From Escherichia phage MN05: a stretch of DNA of 64,000 bases. This document shows, piece after piece, positions 11,274-43,815 of the stretch. Both the position numbers and the translations under genes were made by a program. The first letter of the stretch is position 1. Every line of letters starts with the position of its first letter. The notes beneath the pieces are model-generated. The model had not been told where the DNA came from. It worked only from the letters and a program-made list of their open reading frames with translations, and did no database searches. Where the stretch lies: sequence record NC_070987.1; one strand, 5' to 3'.

Positions 11274-11492
11274 ATGAAAATGATGAAACAAGCTGCATAC
11301 GGTTTAATATGTTTAGGCGCGGGTGTTGTGGTGTCAACCGCAGTTCCTGTAGGCGCAGTCCATCCATTAGTAACTGTCCCTGCTCCAGTAGAGAAACTTA
11401 GCTCTCAATGTAAGCAGAGAACAATTCAAAATAACTTAGTTGTTATTTGCCCTGATGCTGAATCTAACGCTCTGAGAAAGATACTACCTTAA
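11274..11492 (+). CDS. small membrane/secreted protein (holin candidate, speculative)
   Basis: 72 aa; N-terminal hydrophobic segment AAYGLICLGAGVVVSTAVPVGAV; 28 nt upstream of lysozyme gene. Confidence 0.25.
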   Translation: MKMMKQAAYGLICLGAGVVVSTAVPVGAVHPLVTVPAPVEKLSSQCKQRTIQNNLVVICPDAESNALRKILP

Positions 11493-11520: not shown

Positions 11521-12012
11521 ATGGATAACGTCGCATTGCCACCTGTACAACTAAACCTAAGCCCAGCTGGAATGGAATTCATCATGAAGCATGAGGGTAT
11601 GAGAACCAAGGCTTATAAAGATTCCGCAGGTATCTGGACGATATGTGTAGGGGCTACGCGCGATATGAATGGTTATCCGGTTAGACAAGGATTAACGTAT
11701 TCTATAGAGGATTGTCTAGCTCTGCTAGATAGAGACACACAAGACTCTGTTCGTGCTACTCAGAAGAACATAAAGGTTCCTTTACTAGTTCATGAGTTTG
11801 ATGCACTCACTTCTTTCAACTTCAATGTTGGCAGTGGGGCTTTGAGCACATCTAAGTTAAGGAAGGTAATCAATGGAGATGTTAAGGGGGATGTTTATTC
11901 CGAATTTCTTCGTTGGGATAAAATAACGGTCAAGGGAGAGAAGCAGAGAAGTCAGGGTCTTCATAATAGAAGAGTTGCAGAAGCTAATCTTTACACCGAA
12001 GGTAAATATTAA
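11521..12012 (+). CDS. lysozyme (GH24 muramidase, T4 E-like)
   Basis: 163 aa; FIMKHEGMRTKAYKDSAGIWTICVGAT resembles the catalytic region of T4-type lysozymes (E...Y.D..G.WTIG.G). Confidence 0.6.
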   Translation: MDNVALPPVQLNLSPAGMEFIMKHEGMRTKAYKDSAGIWTICVGATRDMNGYPVRQGLTYSIEDCLALLDRDTQDSVRATQKNIKVPLLVHEFDALTSFNFNVGSGALSTSKLRKVINGDVKGDVYSEFLRWDKITVKGEKQRSQGLHNRRVAEANLYTEGKY

Positions 12013-29441: not shown

Positions 29442-30725
<1,284 letters not shown>

Positions 30726-30965
30726 AATGCATCTCTTTATAAATAGTTTCCGTGTTCTTCTTCCAGTTAGATAAACCGGTAAGAACCCTCTGAGCAACTT
30801 CATCAGCTGCCCTACTTCTTTCAATCTCTAGCTCTTGCTGGTGCTTCTCTTTGTCCAGATTACTGCTGTCTGTTTGATATTCGTTAAACTTCATACCACC
30901 AAAGAATACAAGAGCTGAGAAAACGATAAACCCTAAGTTATCACTTAATGTGTTTTGCATATTGT

Positions 30966-30995
30966 CTCCAACGAAAAAAGCCACCCGGAGGTGGC
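30966..30995 (-). terminator. rho-independent terminator (minus strand)
   Basis: GCCACC-tccg-GGTGGC hairpin followed on the minus strand by TTTTTTCGTT. Confidence 0.55.
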
Positions 30996-31894: not shown

Positions 31895-32328
31895 TAAGGT
31901 AGAGTTAGAGAATAACTCTTGCACGGGACTGACGACGATAAGGCGCAGACGACAATCTCTCATAAGTTTGTAAGAAATTGAGAGACTACCGGAAGGGCAG
32001 GAGCCACCTGCGAGATAAAAATAGAGAATTAAGGAATCCTTGATTTAGGTTGTAGGGACTCCTAGGGACTTTGATTCTCTATTTAAAAGAATATTAATTA
32101 CTTACTACCTAAATAATTAACTAGCTTACTTAAACCAAATTCAAGAATAATAGATAAAAAGATTATTCCTAAGAAAGCTAAGAAGTAAAGGATATAAGTT
32201 ACCATTCAAGTAAACCTTTAAAATTAGATTTTTCTACTATCCTCTGATAATGAAGATTAGAATCAGCTTGTTTCTTTAACATCTCATTATATCTATCTCT
32301 GATAGAGTCTTTATAAACTACAGGTTCT

Positions 32329-41128: not shown

Positions 41129-41344
41129 TTAATATTCCTTGATTGGAGAAACTACAAAACCACCCAGAACTGACATATGGGATTGTCTTAAACTTACCGT
41201 ATTGACAGGCATTGGTACAACTTTTAAAGCTTTCTTGAAACGACGAGCCTCTTTTCTGGTCTTAAAGTTTTCTGAAAAAGGGACTGGATTGTCCCCCACG
41301 TAATACACCACTGTCCAGAAATATTTAATCTTTTCCATATTCAC
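41129..41344 (-). CDS. small protein, paralog family B
   Basis: 71 aa; FKTRKEARRFKKALK and C-terminal ...KEY resemble the tandem trio at 43200-43815. Confidence 0.4.
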   Translation of the reverse strand: MNMEKIKYFWTVVYYVGDNPVPFSENFKTRKEARRFKKALKVVPMPVNTVSLRQSHMSVLGGFVVSPIKEY

Positions 41345-41616
41345 TTAACACCTAAAGCTGTGTCCAAAAATGCTTTCAGGTTTGCTTCAGTCTGCATACC
41401 AGAGAGGCTGTAATGTGCACCACTGTTACGATCAGGCACAACGAAAGCAGGGATGCTTCGTACACCATACTTAACAGCTTGCTCACGACCATCACCTTCA
41501 AGGATGTTAATCTCTTCCACTTCTACATCAAACTCCTTAACAACCTTCTCAAAGGTAGGAGCCATTGCTTTACATGGAGCACACTGATCACTATAAAACT
41601 TAATTACTTTACTCAT
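41341..41616 (-). CDS. thioredoxin/glutaredoxin-like protein
   Basis: about 90 aa from MSKVIKF; CAPC redox motif and thioredoxin-fold-like layout. Confidence 0.5.
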   Translation of the reverse strand: MSKVIKFYSDQCAPCKAMAPTFEKVVKEFDVEVEEINILEGDGREQAVKYGVRSIPAFVVPDRNSGAHYSLSGMQTEANLKAFLDTALGVK

Positions 41617-41806
41617 TCTATTCCTTGTTAATAAACAGGTTGATATGACGCTGGGTAGCAGGAACAACAATAAAAGATTTATACTGACCTTTTGCTAGGT
41701 CATGAGCAATCTTCTTTGTCTGACCAAGACCCATCACACAGCCACTAACGATAATGGCATGTGCTTGTAATTCTTCAGGTAGGTTTAGTTTCACTCTTTG
41801 GATCCC

Positions 41807-41992
41807 TTATAGCATACAAAGAATAATAACAAGAGGTAGTGTTATAGCAAAATGTACCAGAACAACACTACCTAGCTTGATAGCTTTAACATCCTCTTCT
41901 GCTGGGTTTTCTTTAATTGCTAAATTTCGAGCTTTATATATAACAGTACCAACTATTAACGACCACACGGCCCACACAATCAGTGAAATCAT
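41807..41992 (-). CDS. small two-TM membrane protein (paralog family D)
   Basis: 61 aa; MISLIVWAVWSLIVGTVIY ... VVLVHFAITLPLVIIL. Confidence 0.4.
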   Translation of the reverse strand: MISLIVWAVWSLIVGTVIYKARNLAIKENPAEEDVKAIKLGSVVLVHFAITLPLVIILCML

Positions 41993-42001
41993 ATCAAACC
42001 C

Positions 42002-42181
42002 TTATGCAGTCAGGAGGTGAAGCAGGAATGGGATAACAACAGCTACGATAACCATGATAGTTGATGCTGTTTGAATCTCACCTTTCTTATCAGGAGTTTC
42101 TTCAATAAGCTTACCAGAAGCCCAATAAATACCACCACCAATAAAGATAGCCCAAATACCCCATACGATTGCTGATAACAT
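42002..42181 (-). CDS. small two-TM membrane protein (paralog family D; hand-translated)
   Basis: 59 aa MLSAIVWGIWAIFIGGGIYWASGKLIEETPDKKGEIQTASTIMVIVAVVIPFLLHLLTA, paralogous to 41807..41992; replaces listed ORF 42043..42315. Confidence 0.45.
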   Translation of the reverse strand: MLSAIVWGIWAIFIGGGIYWASGKLIEETPDKKGEIQTASTIMVIVAVVIPFLLHLLTA

Positions 42182-42241
42182 ATATCTATATCCTTATAAA
42201 TAAGTTCGCCCCACCTCGGGTTAGGAGACAGGGCGGAGGTT

Positions 42242-42820
42242 TTAGTAAGACACGTCACCACTTGAATGGGACATGTTGCTCTTGACGAAGTAGCAATACT
42301 TGCCAAGACCTTCATTAATTTCTTGAAGCATACTCTGATCGACAGGGTAGGTGGCTAAATCGCCATCAAACTCATCCATCTTCTCAATAATACACATCAA
42401 GGTCATGCACATATCAGAGAGCATACCGTCCATATCCAGATCAGCATTACCCTCTGAGAACCAAGCATGAGAGATGTAGTTAGCTGCTGTAGCATCCACT
42501 TTAACACAGTGGTAACGCATACGTTCAGCAATACGATCTCCTACCTGTCGTGCGTAATCTTCCAGCTCATCAAACATACCATGAACACCCTGAAATCCTG
42601 CACCAGAGACGTTCCAGTGATAGTTTTTAGCTTTGATATGCAAGAGTTCCATGTTAGCTTGTAAGCAGCTCAGGATGTGTTCTAGGCTATTTCCGCTAAT
42701 CATGCCTTGCATCGTTTCAAGGCGAGAGATTGAAAGCTCAGACCGGTCTAACATGTTATATTCTGCACGACCAATCTCAGGTAAATCAAAGACATTCTTA
42801 TGCATTTGGCTTTTCTCCAT
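42242..42820 (-). CDS. Dps/ferritin-like protein
   Basis: LQANMELLHIKAKNYHWNVSGAGFQGVHGMFDELEDYARQVGDRIAERM matches the Dps signature (K..N.HWNV.G..F...H..F.E.Y......D..AER); start taken at an internal ATG. Confidence 0.55.
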   Translation of the reverse strand: MEKSQMHKNVFDLPEIGRAEYNMLDRSELSISRLETMQGMISGNSLEHILSCLQANMELLHIKAKNYHWNVSGAGFQGVHGMFDELEDYARQVGDRIAERMRYHCVKVDATAANYISHAWFSEGNADLDMDGMLSDMCMTLMCIIEKMDEFDGDLATYPVDQSMLQEINEGLGKYCYFVKSNMSHSSGDVSY

Positions 42821-43127
42821 CAAGTTCAACTGAATTAGCAACGTTACGTTCCAGATTGTCAATTACCTGCTGGGTAATTACGATGCAGTTCTGTGGGTCT
42901 ACTGACTTAGAACGCCCCATTTCAGGGTCATACACCTTAACTCGCTTAGCAGTTGAACCTGTAACCTGAAGAACCTTCAACAGATACCCCTGATTACCAA
43001 TAGACCAAGCAACAACATCACGATTCTTGATAAAGCGACCAAGCATATCACGATGATAAAACTGTTGCATCACCTTGGATTTTGTAATCTCTTCAGTGGG
43101 CGGGGCCACTTTACTCAAATCTAACAT
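42798..43127 (-). CDS. hypothetical protein
   Basis: 109 aa ORF downstream of a promoter-like element. Confidence 0.3.
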   Translation of the reverse strand: MLDLSKVAPPTEEITKSKVMQQFYHRDMLGRFIKNRDVVAWSIGNQGYLLKVLQVTGSTAKRVKVYDPEMGRSKSVDPQNCIVITQQVIDNLERNVANSVELDGEKPNA

Positions 43128-43166
43128 AACTCTCTCCTGTAAAATACAAATTCTTATTGTACTCTA

Positions 43167-43200
43167 TATACATTTGAGAGTTATCATATCTACTACCAAT
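43167..43200 (-). promoter_or_regulatory. putative promoter ATTGGTAGTAGATA-N11-AAATGTATA (minus strand)
   Basis: bipartite element with spacing identical to the plus-strand copy at 31861-31894; about 40 nt upstream of the ATG at 43127. Confidence 0.4.
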
Positions 43201-43409
43201 CAGTAGTAAATTACTTTAGACATAAAAGAACCAGTGTTAGGGTCTTCATACCAGCGATGTATGTCAGCGCTTTTTACTATTGTGCCCAGAGTCTTCAACT
43301 GTTTCTTAGCAATACGAGCCTCTTTGCGAGTGTCAAACAATTTGATGCTATCTTTTCTCATGTGTTGCTCAAGATCCCAAACAACATGAATAGCCCACAT
43401 CTTTTTCAT
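43200..43409 (-). CDS. small protein, paralog family B
   Basis: 69 aa; FDTRKEARIAKKQLK ... KVIYY. Confidence 0.4.
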   Translation of the reverse strand: MKKMWAIHVVWDLEQHMRKDSIKLFDTRKEARIAKKQLKTLGTIVKSADIHRWYEDPNTGSFMSKVIYY

Positions 43410-43618
43410 TAGTAATGCACCTTTCCGCTGATATAAACACGACCAGAAGAATACTCCTTGGCCTTATGGATACTGATACTATTGACCACGTCACCAGTAA
43501 GCATAGTCTTTTTAAAATCTCGAGCTTGTTGGCGAGTGGGTAGTGCAGTCATAGTCATGCCACCTGATGCCCACTTAATCTTTGCTAACCAAAATTTTCT
43601 CATAGTGATTGGTCTCAT
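43409..43618 (-). CDS. small protein, paralog family B
   Basis: 69 aa; LPTRQQARDFKKTM ... GKVHY; start overlaps the stop of its neighbour. Confidence 0.4.
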   Translation of the reverse strand: MRPITMRKFWLAKIKWASGGMTMTALPTRQQARDFKKTMLTGDVVNSISIHKAKEYSSGRVYISGKVHY

Positions 43619-43815
43619 TAATAATAAACCTTGCTGTTGGCAAAAAGAGCACCTTCGTTATTCACGATAGCTTTACCAATACTAACCTTGTTAAACCTAA
43701 AAGTAGATTTGTATTGATTTTTGACCCTACGGGCGTGCTCTCGAGTATTAACAAAATCTACAGCTACTAACTCTCCAGTCGTGTTATCATGTACACGAAC
43801 AATCCACTTTTTCAT
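43618..43815 (-). CDS. small protein, paralog family B
   Basis: 65 aa; VNTREHARRVKNQYK ... SKVYY. Confidence 0.4.
   Translation of the reverse strand: MKKWIVRVHDNTTGELVAVDFVNTREHARRVKNQYKSTFRFNKVSIGKAIVNNEGALFANSKVYY

What the first reader, a model, noticed from the sequence alone, without database searches (positions are those of the whole stretch)
41807..42181. Tandem pair of about 60 aa two-TM membrane proteins (one missing from the ORF track)
Seen in sequence: 41807..41992 and a hand-translated 59-aa ORF at 42002..42181 are paralogous (M(I/L)S.IVW..W.....G..IY then a charged loop then a second hydrophobic helix). The listed ORF 42043..42315 covers the same DNA in another frame and is probably spurious. 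Established knowledge: class II holins and many superinfection-exclusion or membrane-depolarising peptides have this size and topology. A second membrane paralog pair sits at 60849..61106 and 61246..61491.
Basis: partly seen in the sequence, partly recalled or inferred. Interest (0 to 1): 0.4.

Follow-up and report, generated by a model that had tools for sequence, protein, structure and literature searches.

The report
Paired small phage membrane-hairpin genes
Two adjacent genes of a phiEco32-like E. coli phage encode related 60-residue proteins that fold as two-helix membrane hairpins; they are real genes already listed in databases as "hypothetical", they are almost certainly not the phage's lysis holin, and what they do is still unknown.

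Summary
The minus-strand ORFs 42002..42181 (59 aa, "A") and 41807..41992 (61 aa, "B") are real paralogous genes. Each encodes a two-helix transmembrane hairpin. The overlapping 90-aa ORF 42043..42315 is spurious.

The window is a Kuravirus (phiEco32-like E. coli podophage). A is the same protein as phiEco32 gp66 and B the same as ECBP2_0063. Both are annotated "hypothetical protein" and both fall in PHROG 9296 (unknown function). A was "missing from the ORF track" only because 59 aa is below the 60-aa listing cut-off.

The family is an orphan of the subfamily Gordonclarkvirinae. A or its variant A' always sits between the Dps-like and thioredoxin genes of the middle (replication-phase) operon, in 96 of 96 records. 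B is an accessory copy, present in 43 of 96. Its DNA is 100% identical across three genera whose flanking genes are 61-77% identical.

The holin reading is not supported. A holin-endolysin pair lies in the late operon, and A and B have no charged C-terminal tail and match no holin family.

My best guess, which is inferred and untested, is that they act through helix-helix contacts in the inner membrane in a phage-phage or phage-host conflict role such as superinfection exclusion. The finding is ordinary to modestly interesting.

The parts
42002..42181 (-). Gene A. A 59-aa two-TM helical hairpin, the same protein as phiEco32 phi32_66, and the core member of phrog_9296.
   Evidence: ORF. RefSeq annotation and extracted translations show it identical to phi32_66. 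phrog_9296 E 3.6e-34. pN/pS 0.26 with variable sites 17/11/35 by codon position. Codon LLR +0.53/+0.64. AF2 hairpin with pLDDT 92.9. Present in all 96 related phage records.
41807..41992 (-). Gene B. A 61-aa two-TM helical hairpin, an accessory paralog of A (ECBP2_0063 / NJ01_079 type).
   Evidence: ORF. phrog_9296 E 2.3e-30. 32% identical to A and 42-44% to A'. A second family copy is present in 43 of 96 records. 100% nucleotide identity to ECBP2, SU7, KBNP1711 and 101114UKE3. AF2 hairpin with pLDDT 91.5.
41993..42001 (-). The 9-nt A-B spacer. A's stop codon TAA (42004..42002) is the start of a TAAGGG Shine-Dalgarno-like run that continues into this spacer, 6 nt before B's ATG, so translation of B is probably coupled to A.
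   Evidence: Sequence read directly...GCATAAGGGTTTGATATG.... Identical in all six compared phages that carry B.
42182..42206 (-). Leader of gene A, with the Shine-Dalgarno sequence AAGGA (42195..42191) 9 nt before the ATG.
   Evidence: Sequence. Conserved as TAAGGA in all 12 compared loci.
42207..42235 (-). Conserved stem-loop between the Dps-like gene's stop and gene A. The stem has 11 pairs including 3 G-U and is followed by AACUUAUUUAU. It is a candidate partial terminator or attenuator, or an mRNA-stabilising hairpin.
   Evidence: Terminator-like scan hit. The stem is invariant in 12 loci from 3 genera while the loop differs. The G-U pairs mean that it folds only in the sense transcript.
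41618..41794 (-). A 58-aa soluble accessory gene (phrog_19504, unknown function) next to B. Together with B it forms the 384-bp stretch that phiEco32 lacks.
   Evidence: phrog_19504 E 1.5e-45. Found in 57 phage records. 94-99% nucleotide identity across genera. phiEco32 lacks window 41612..41995. It occurs without B (EK010, L021), and B occurs without it (L020).
42043..42315 (-). Spurious 90-aa ORF overlapping gene A in another frame.
   Evidence: No family hit. pN/pS in its frame is 0.96 (A group) and 1.44 (A' group). Codon LLR -0.23/+0.07. Interrupted by stop codons in 7 of 11 relatives.
43165..43210 (-). Promoter region of the middle operon that contains A and B: a sigma-70-like TTTACT-16-TATGAT followed by AAATGTATATA, which matches the phage sigma gp36 motif tAATGTAtA.
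   Evidence: Scan and motif matches. The SU10 paper places a sigma-70 promoter plus the gp36 motif upstream of the homologous CDS68 and assigns CDS25-68 to the middle class (PMC4281155). The motif is taken from PMC8948821.

Best explanation
Shown:
- A and B are genuine paralogous genes. By their arrangement they are probably co-transcribed and translationally coupled. They lie in the middle (replication-phase) operon of a Kuravirus.
- Each encodes a bare two-helix transmembrane hairpin with almost no extramembrane sequence.
- A is the subfamily-wide core gene and the same protein as phiEco32 gp66. B is an accessory duplicate that has recently moved between genera.
- They are not the phage's holin.

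Inferred:
- The hairpins insert in the inner membrane with both ends facing the periplasm. A 14-18-residue K/E-rich helical cap, closed by an invariant E-x-P turn, faces the cytoplasm.
- They act through lateral helix-helix contacts, using the invariant residues S3, W7, W10, G15 and Y19 in TM1 and S40 and P51 in TM2. The contacts would be either self-association or A-B hetero-oligomers, or binding to a host or phage inner-membrane protein.
- The most likely biological role is in conflict: blocking entry of, or competition from, related phages (superinfection exclusion or an immunity-like function), or neutralising a membrane-acting host defence. A second paralog with a different cap would widen the specificity.
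For: The genes are real:
- Purifying selection for A and A', and codon usage typical of this phage's genes in the annotated frames of both A and B.
- Shine-Dalgarno sites before both genes, and a 9-nt A-B spacer.
- Annotated in public records.

Hairpin and topology:
- Hydrophobicity profiles and confident AF2 models.
- All K/R residues lie in the cap (3 in A, 5 in B) and none at either terminus, so the positive-inside rule puts the cap in the cytoplasm.

Middle operon:
- The P68 promoter motifs are present.
- The SU10 paper assigns CDS25-68 to the middle class by homology to phiEco32's genome map (PMC4281155).

Specific interaction rather than generic hydrophobicity:
- 12 invariant positions across the three sequence types, mostly in TM1.

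Conflict-type evolution:
- The family is an orphan of Gordonclarkvirinae. A profile search of 1.84 billion representative proteins found only 4 real clusters. There is no positional analogue in the 7-11-like relatives.
- A versus A' is the most diverged gene of its neighbourhood at 61-63% nucleotide identity, against 74-84% for its neighbours.
- That divergence is concentrated in the cap: 19% identity there, against 59% and 71% in the two TM helices.
- Copy number is polymorphic. All four layouts occur: A, A+B, A+58aa and A+B+58aa.
- B is 100% identical in DNA across three genera.
Against: - There is no functional evidence of any kind and no homolog of known function, so the conflict role rests only on evolutionary pattern.
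- A is a conserved core gene under purifying selection and sits among nucleotide-metabolism genes. That fits a housekeeping role at least as well.
- Exclusion genes of lytic phages are typically early, whereas this is a middle operon.
- The topology is inferred from charge distribution alone. The acidic residues in the cap would also allow a procoat-like orientation with the loop outside.
- AF2 confidence on a 59-residue hairpin says little beyond helicity.
Confidence: 0.4

Rival explanations
1. Lysis function. A and/or B act as a class II holin or pinholin, or as an antiholin that sets lysis timing by pairing with the late holin in the membrane.
For: - Size and two-TM layout.
- TM1 of A is Gly/Ala-rich and only marginally hydrophobic (summed Hessa dG +1.0), faintly like a SAR domain.
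- Lysis genes are already dispersed in this phage: the Rz-like spanin lies in the middle cluster at 30610..30984.
- The annotated holin is assigned by family name (phrog_11161) and by its position next to the endolysin. I found no experimental test of it.
Against: - A holin-endolysin pair is present in the late operon.
- The endolysin has no SAR domain.
- A and B have no charged C-terminal tail and no dual start.
- They match no holin family.
- Middle-phase expression of a hole-former would risk premature lysis (timing by homology).
- The holin type does not co-vary with A, A' or B. Bas86 and Bas93 carry the divergent holin with A, and phiEco32 and SU10 have a holin identical to the window's but no B.
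Confidence: 0.1
2. Housekeeping membrane factor of the replication and nucleotide-metabolism module. The hairpin tethers or organises neighbouring gene products (Dps-like protein, thioredoxin, ThyX, the replisome) at the inner membrane, or adjusts a host transporter or respiratory component to support DNA synthesis.
For: - A or A' is present in 96 of 96 subfamily genomes, always between the Dps-like and thioredoxin genes.
- Purifying selection.
- Same operon and temporal class as the replication genes.
Against: - The only non-membrane part is a 14-18-residue cap, which is also the least conserved part.
- The 7-11-like relatives keep the Dps-like, thioredoxin and ThyX genes but have no membrane hairpin nearby.
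- Duplication, allelic divergence and horizontal spread of B are unusual for a housekeeping tether.
Confidence: 0.2
3. Ion-leak or energy-metabolism effector. The hairpins oligomerise into a ring or small pore that partly depolarises the cell, or they mimic the F-ATPase c subunit and interfere with the host c-ring.
For: - The best PDB structural matches for both models are F-type ATPase c subunits (TM-score 0.78-0.82, rmsd 1.3-2.1 A).
- The predicted topology is the same as that of subunit c.
- TM1 of A is Gly-rich, and the loop proline and the TM2 proline are 21 residues apart, as in E. coli subunit c.
Against: - The Foldseek E-values are 0.3-0.5, which is not significant. The HtrII hairpin matches B about as well, so the resemblance is the generic TM hairpin.
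- hhalign against c subunits gives probability 0.3%, and there is no Pfam ATP-synt_C hit.
- The essential TM2 carboxylate is absent (valine at the corresponding position), and the loop is E-x-P rather than R-Q-P.
Confidence: 0.08
4. One or both ORFs are not expressed genes, and the overlapping 90-aa ORF is the real gene.
For: The ORFs are short and hydrophobic. SU10 virion/lysate proteomics listed the Dps-like protein, gp68 and thioredoxin among the middle-gene products in the passages I read, and not gp66.
Against: - Frame-specific purifying selection for A and A', and codon usage for both A and B.
- Conserved Shine-Dalgarno sites.
- The 90-aa ORF is broken in 7 of 11 relatives.
- Small hydrophobic proteins are routinely missed by shotgun mass spectrometry (general knowledge).
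Confidence: 0.02

Closest known systems
phiEco32 gp66 (phi32_66) and ECBP2_0063 / NJ01_079, i.e. PHROG family phrog_9296 (unknown function)
   Same: A has the same sequence as phi32_66 and B the same as ECBP2_0063. Both match the PHROG profile over its full length.
   Different: Nothing differs, since this is the same family. The family has no assigned function. I found no paper that discusses these genes.
Class II holins / pinholins (phage 21 S21-type)
   Same: About 60-70 aa with two transmembrane helices. TM1 of A is rich in small residues.
   Different: - No charged cytoplasmic C-terminal tail and no dual start.
- Predicted orientation is N-out/C-out rather than N-in/C-in.
- Not adjacent to the endolysin, and the endolysin has no SAR domain.
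- Middle rather than late operon.
- No sequence-family match.
T4 Imm and other small inner-membrane superinfection-exclusion proteins (Pfam Imm_superinfect; P22 SieA, HK97 gp15)
   Same: A small phage-encoded inner-membrane protein made before late gene expression by a virulent phage. Accessory-like, fast-evolving behaviour.
   Different: No sequence similarity (the Pfam scan at E<=1 was empty). Shorter than Imm. Middle rather than early operon. No exclusion phenotype has been tested.
F-type ATP synthase subunit c (Pfam ATP-synt_C)
   Same: Best structural match in the PDB: a tight antiparallel TM helical hairpin with a short polar loop containing a proline, and the same predicted topology.
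   Different: - The match is not significant (E 0.3).
- hhalign probability is 0.3%.
- No TM2 carboxylate and no R-Q-P loop.
- 20 residues shorter.
The resemblance is of the generic fold only.
Bacterial small membrane regulators (AcrZ, MgrB, MgtS, KdpF type)
   Same: A tiny protein that is nearly all transmembrane helix and would have to act by binding a larger membrane protein. This is a comparison of mode of action only, from general knowledge.
   Different: Those are mostly single-TM and chromosomal. There is no homology.

Membership tests
PHROG phrog_9296 (phage protein family of unknown function) | Full-length match to the family profile | tested here: met
   A: E 3.6e-34 over profile positions 1-59 of 59. 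B: E 2.3e-30 over 1-59 of 59.
Class II holin / pinholin | Two transmembrane domains in a protein of about 60-100 aa | tested here: met
   Hydrophobicity scan and AF2 models.
Class II holin / pinholin | Hydrophilic, highly charged C-terminal cytoplasmic tail | tested here: not met
   A ends ...IPFLLHLLTA and B ends ...LPLVIILCML. There is no K, R, D or E after TM2.
Class II holin / pinholin | Encoded in the lysis cassette next to an endolysin (a SAR endolysin for pinholins) and expressed late | tested here: not met
   The endolysin is at 11521..12012 (+) with its own upstream holin and has no N-terminal TM or SAR segment. A and B are about 30 kb away on the other strand, in the operon classed as middle by homology.
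Class II holin / pinholin | Sequence membership of a described holin family | tested here: not met
   No holin family in Pfam (E<=1), PHROGs (E<=0.01) or NCBIfam (E<=1).
Class II holin / pinholin | Lethal hole formation or membrane depolarisation on expression, and complementation of a holin-null phage | not testable with these tools
   Needs an expression and lysis experiment.
T4 Imm-type superinfection exclusion protein | Sequence match to Imm_superinfect or another described Sie family | tested here: not met
   Pfam scan empty at E<=1. PADLOC empty. A profile search of 1.84e9 proteins found only the family itself.
T4 Imm-type superinfection exclusion protein | Expression blocks genome entry of superinfecting related phages | not testable with these tools
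   Needs plating and DNA-entry assays.
F-ATPase subunit c (ATP-synt_C) | Sequence match to the family profile | tested here: not met
   No Pfam hit. hhalign probability 0.3%.
F-ATPase subunit c (ATP-synt_C) | Ion-binding carboxylate in the middle of TM2 and a conserved R-Q-P loop | tested here: not met
   TM2 of A (TASTIMVIVAVVIPFLLHLLTA) and of B contains no D or E, and the loop is E-[TN]-P.
F-ATPase subunit c (ATP-synt_C) | Helical-hairpin fold | tested here: inconclusive
   The top Foldseek PDB hits have TM-score 0.78-0.82 but E 0.3-0.5. Other TM hairpins such as HtrII score similarly.

The most novel reading that the evidence does not exclude
The three sequence types (A, A', B) could be alleles of a previously undescribed superinfection-exclusion or immunity family. 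In that reading the variable cytoplasmic cap sets which related Gordonclarkvirinae phages are excluded, so phages that pick up a second type (as this one picked up B) extend their exclusion range. That would explain why B has swept across three genera with identical DNA.

A still more exotic reading is not excluded but is much less likely (about 3%): the hairpins mimic the ATP synthase c subunit without its carboxylate and poison or re-tune the host F-ATPase rotor.
Probability: 0.18. Interest if true: 0.55.

Novelty: new member of a known kind. Interest (0 to 1): 0.27.

Why it matters
As it stands, little. The genes are already deposited as hypothetical proteins, and the analysis mainly removes a wrong label (holin) and a spurious ORF.

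The modest value is that it defines a clean and testable case:
- a core membrane hairpin found in every Gordonclarkvirinae genome;
- an accessory paralog caught in the act of horizontal spread;
- a phage group used for therapy and now available on E. coli K-12 through the BASEL collection (PMC11990801).

If the type-specific exclusion idea held, it would add a new minimal superinfection-exclusion family. It would also give a marker for incompatibility between Kuravirus-like phages in cocktails.

Tried and rejected
- **Word-indexed homolog searches.** Searches with A, B and the 58-aa neighbour returned only near-identical phage proteins.
- **Exhaustive profile search.** A search of 1.84 billion representatives found only 4 real clusters. 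One of them is a frameshifted A'. There was also one spurious 1106-aa multi-TM hit.
- **Family and structure libraries.** Pfam, NCBIfam, PADLOC and PDB sequence searches gave nothing.
- **Positional analogues.** I looked next to the Dps-like gene in 7-11-like phages (GAP52, SE131, Privateer, PKM.Lu.22.1) and found no small TM protein.
- **Structural searches.** They returned only generic hairpins. The c-subunit lead was followed with hhalign and rejected as homology. The afdb50 library was unavailable.
- **Holin co-variation.** The holin type does not track A, A' or B.
- **Literature.** The phiEco32 genome and transcription papers (PMC2587145, PMC3275717) are not held. PTXU04 in the CRISPRi-ART screen is not a Kuravirus but a Xuquatrovirus, so there are no fitness data. 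No paper I found discusses gp66.
- **B and the 58-aa gene as one obligate cassette.** I considered this and rejected it, because all four presence/absence combinations exist.

Full report
**What the window is.** The 1.6 kb around the finding is 96-98% identical to E. coli phages of the genus Kuravirus (subfamily Gordonclarkvirinae, phiEco32-like prolate podophages). Examples are vB_EcoP_WFI101126 and EcM-vB1. Coordinates 1-27000 carry the late structural genes on the + strand. From 27000 to 64000 the middle and early genes run on the - strand.

**Checking the observation.**
- Public records annotate both as "hypothetical protein". A has the same sequence as phiEco32 phi32_66 and B the same as ECBP2_0063.
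- They are paralogs. BLASTP gives 33% identity with E 2e-10. The alignment score of 94 was never reached in 5000 shuffles that preserved the composition of each TM and loop segment (mean 34, sd 8, z 7.5). Both match PHROG family 9296 over its full length.
- Each has two hydrophobic 19-residue segments.
- AlphaFold2 predicts, with pLDDT 92.9 for A and 91.5 for B, two long helices joined by a tight turn. In A these are helix 2-28 and helix 30-58, with the turn at E28-T29-P30.

**Which reading frame is real.**
- Among related phages, the ratio of non-synonymous to synonymous differences is 0.26 for A, 0.19 for the variant A' and 0.37 for B in the annotated frames.
- In the other two frames the ratio is 0.96-2.0 for A and A'. 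Variable sites pile up at third codon positions in A and A'.
- For B only three distinct alleles exist, and one alternative frame gives 0.43, so this test alone does not decide B's frame.
- A codon-usage model trained on this phage's long genes scores A at +0.53/+0.64 and B at +0.21/+0.46 per codon. Real genes average +0.48 with sd 0.17. The overlapping 90-aa ORF 42043..42315 scores -0.23/+0.07, like an out-of-frame read.
- That 90-aa ORF is interrupted by stop codons in 7 of 11 relatives and has no family match.

**Genomic setting.**
- Reading in the direction of transcription, the order is:
  - dCTP deaminase;
  - four small genes;
  - a promoter region;
  - a 109-aa gene (the gp68 homolog);
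  - the Dps-like gene;
  - a conserved hairpin;
  - A;
  - B;
  - a 58-aa gene;
  - thioredoxin;
  - a 71-aa gene;
  - ThyX.
- The promoter region carries a sigma-70-like TTTACT-16-TATGAT followed by AAATGTATATA. The latter matches the tAATGTAtA element recognised by the phage sigma factor gp36 (PMC8948821).
- The SU10 paper places exactly such a promoter upstream of the homologous CDS68. By homology to phiEco32's genome map it assigns CDS25-68 to the middle class (PMC4281155). A and B are therefore middle-operon genes by homology, expressed with the replication and nucleotide-metabolism genes. This was not measured for this phage.
- A has an AAGGA Shine-Dalgarno site 9 nt upstream. B starts 9 nt after A's stop, and that stop codon forms part of a TAAGGG ribosome-binding site, so translation is probably coupled.

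**Distribution and evolution.**
- tblastn finds the family in 96 phage records, all of them E. coli or Shigella Gordonclarkvirinae. Forty-three records carry two copies and 53 carry one, including phiEco32, SU10, Paul and Bas89.
- A profile search of 1.84 billion representative proteins found only four real clusters, all from this family. It is an orphan family.
- The 7-11-like relatives (Grimontviridae) keep the Dps-like, thioredoxin and ThyX genes but have no small membrane protein nearby.
- There are three sequence types:
  - A, in Kuravirus.
  - A', at the same position in Suseptimavirus, Nieuwekanaalvirus and some others. It is about 50% identical to A.
  - B, which is 32% identical to A and 42-44% to A'.
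- Twelve positions are invariant across all three types (numbering of A): M1, S3, W7, W10, G15 and Y19 in TM1; E28 and P30 in the turn; I36; and S40, P51 and L56 in TM2.
- Between A and A' the two TM helices are 59% and 71% identical, but the polar cap is only 19% identical.
- At the DNA level, A versus A' is the most diverged gene of its neighbourhood: 61-63% identity, against 74-84% for gp68, the Dps-like gene and thioredoxin.
- In contrast, B and the 9-nt spacer before it are 100% identical in DNA between this Kuravirus and ECBP2, SU7, 101114UKE3 and KBNP1711. The adjacent 58-aa gene is 94-99% identical. This is a recent horizontal exchange.
- Relative to phiEco32 the window has an exact 384-bp insertion (41612..41995) holding B and the 58-aa gene. 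The junctions fall at the stop-codon/Shine-Dalgarno sequences.
- All four layouts exist in nature: A; A+B; A+58aa; A+B+58aa. The small genes are therefore independent units in a hot spot for accessory genes.

**Is it a holin?** The evidence says no.
- A holin (phrog_11161, one TM domain) sits directly upstream of the endolysin in the late operon (11274..11492 and 11521..12012, + strand). An Rz-like spanin is at 30610..30984 (-).
- The endolysin has no N-terminal signal-anchor, so no pinholin is called for.
- A and B end inside TM2 with no charged tail. They have a single start codon and match no holin family.
- The holin exists in two sequence types that do not track A, A' or B. This gives no support to a matched holin-antiholin pair.
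- Two caveats apply. The annotated holin is assigned by family name and position, and I found no experimental test of it. Lysis genes are already dispersed in this phage. I therefore keep a 10% rival.

**Topology and structure.**
- Every lysine and arginine lies in the cap (3 in A, 5 in B) and none at either end. By the positive-inside rule the cap is cytoplasmic and both termini are periplasmic. This is an inference.
- The closest solved structures for both models are ATP synthase c subunits (TM-score about 0.8). The E-values are 0.3-0.5, and the HtrII transducer hairpin fits B equally well.
- A profile-profile comparison with c subunits gives probability 0.3%.
- The essential TM2 carboxylate and the R-Q-P loop are absent. 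This is the generic TM-hairpin fold and not evidence of homology.

**How it most likely works.**
- A protein that is almost entirely two membrane helices can act only by packing against other helices. The partners could be its own copies, its paralog, or a host or phage membrane protein. The invariant residues of TM1 and the TM2 proline argue for a specific interface.
- The evolutionary behaviour is what conflict genes show and what housekeeping genes usually do not:
  - orphan distribution;
  - fast divergence focused on the exposed cap;
  - copy-number polymorphism;
  - a paralog swept across genera.
- I therefore favour a superinfection-exclusion or immunity-like role, or neutralisation of a membrane-acting defence. 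I give the whole statement a confidence of 0.4. The gene-level facts within it are near certain, and the role itself is about one in three.
- The main rival (0.2) is a housekeeping role tied to the replication module, supported by A being a core gene at a fixed position. An ion-leak or c-ring-mimic role (0.08) and a lysis role (0.1) are less likely.

**Novelty and verdict.** The sequences and the family are already in public databases without a function, and nothing here is surprising to a phage specialist. The finding is a correct observation with a partly wrong interpretation. Its value is a tidy, testable example of a core-plus-accessory membrane-hairpin pair in a therapeutically used phage group. 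Interest is 0.27.

Noticed in passing
window 42207..42235 (-): A stem-loop lies between the Dps-like gene and gene A. It has 11 pairs, 3 of them G-U, and is followed by a U-rich tail. The stem is identical in 12 loci from three genera although the flanking genes are only 61-77% identical, while the loop varies. It may be a partial terminator or attenuator, or a transcript-stabilising element. It is not annotated in the records examined here.
   Followed up: partly
window 43165..43210 (-): A likely dual middle promoter upstream of the gp68-like gene: the sigma-70-like TTTACT-16-TATGAT immediately followed by AAATGTATATA, which matches the phage gp36 sigma motif.
   Followed up: partly
window 41129..41344, 43200..43409, 43409..43618, 43618..43815 (all -): Four small genes of about 70 aa share a TR(K/Q/E)xAR..KK motif (BLASTP E 2e-5 for one pair). 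This is a second multi-copy small-gene family flanking the locus. The copy at 41129..41344 is absent from phiEco32 at this position.
   Followed up: partly
They are only weakly similar to each other (31% over 49 aa, E 3e-4; shuffle z 3.4) and are unrelated to the A/B family.
   Followed up: partly
window 41618..41794 (-): A 58-aa soluble orphan gene (phrog_19504) sits next to B. It is present in 57 phage records, varies independently of B, and gave no structural or family lead.
   Followed up: partly
window 11274..11492 (+): The annotated holin has a single N-terminal TM domain preceded by K2 and K5, and a 43-residue C-terminal part with two cysteines. This layout resembles the T4 T (class III) holin rather than class I or II. 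I found no experimental test of it.
   Followed up: no
window 62459..62758 (-): An early-region ORF has an N-terminal hydrophobic segment ending in a lipobox-like LVCVAITGC. The homolog is annotated 'putative phage lipoprotein' in phiEco32. It is a candidate outer-surface exclusion factor of the Llp/Cor kind.
   Followed up: no
window 42242..42862 (-): The mechanical ORF list starts the Dps-like gene at a TTG, giving 206 aa. Relatives and annotation indicate the ATG at 42805 (187 aa), overlapping the end of the upstream gene by 8 nt.
   Followed up: partly
window 32098..32205 (-) and 58372..58536 (-): Two further very small single-TM ORFs (35 aa, phrog_24970; 54 aa, phrog_13048) of unknown function. 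This phage encodes at least seven small membrane proteins outside the lysis cassette.
   Followed up: no
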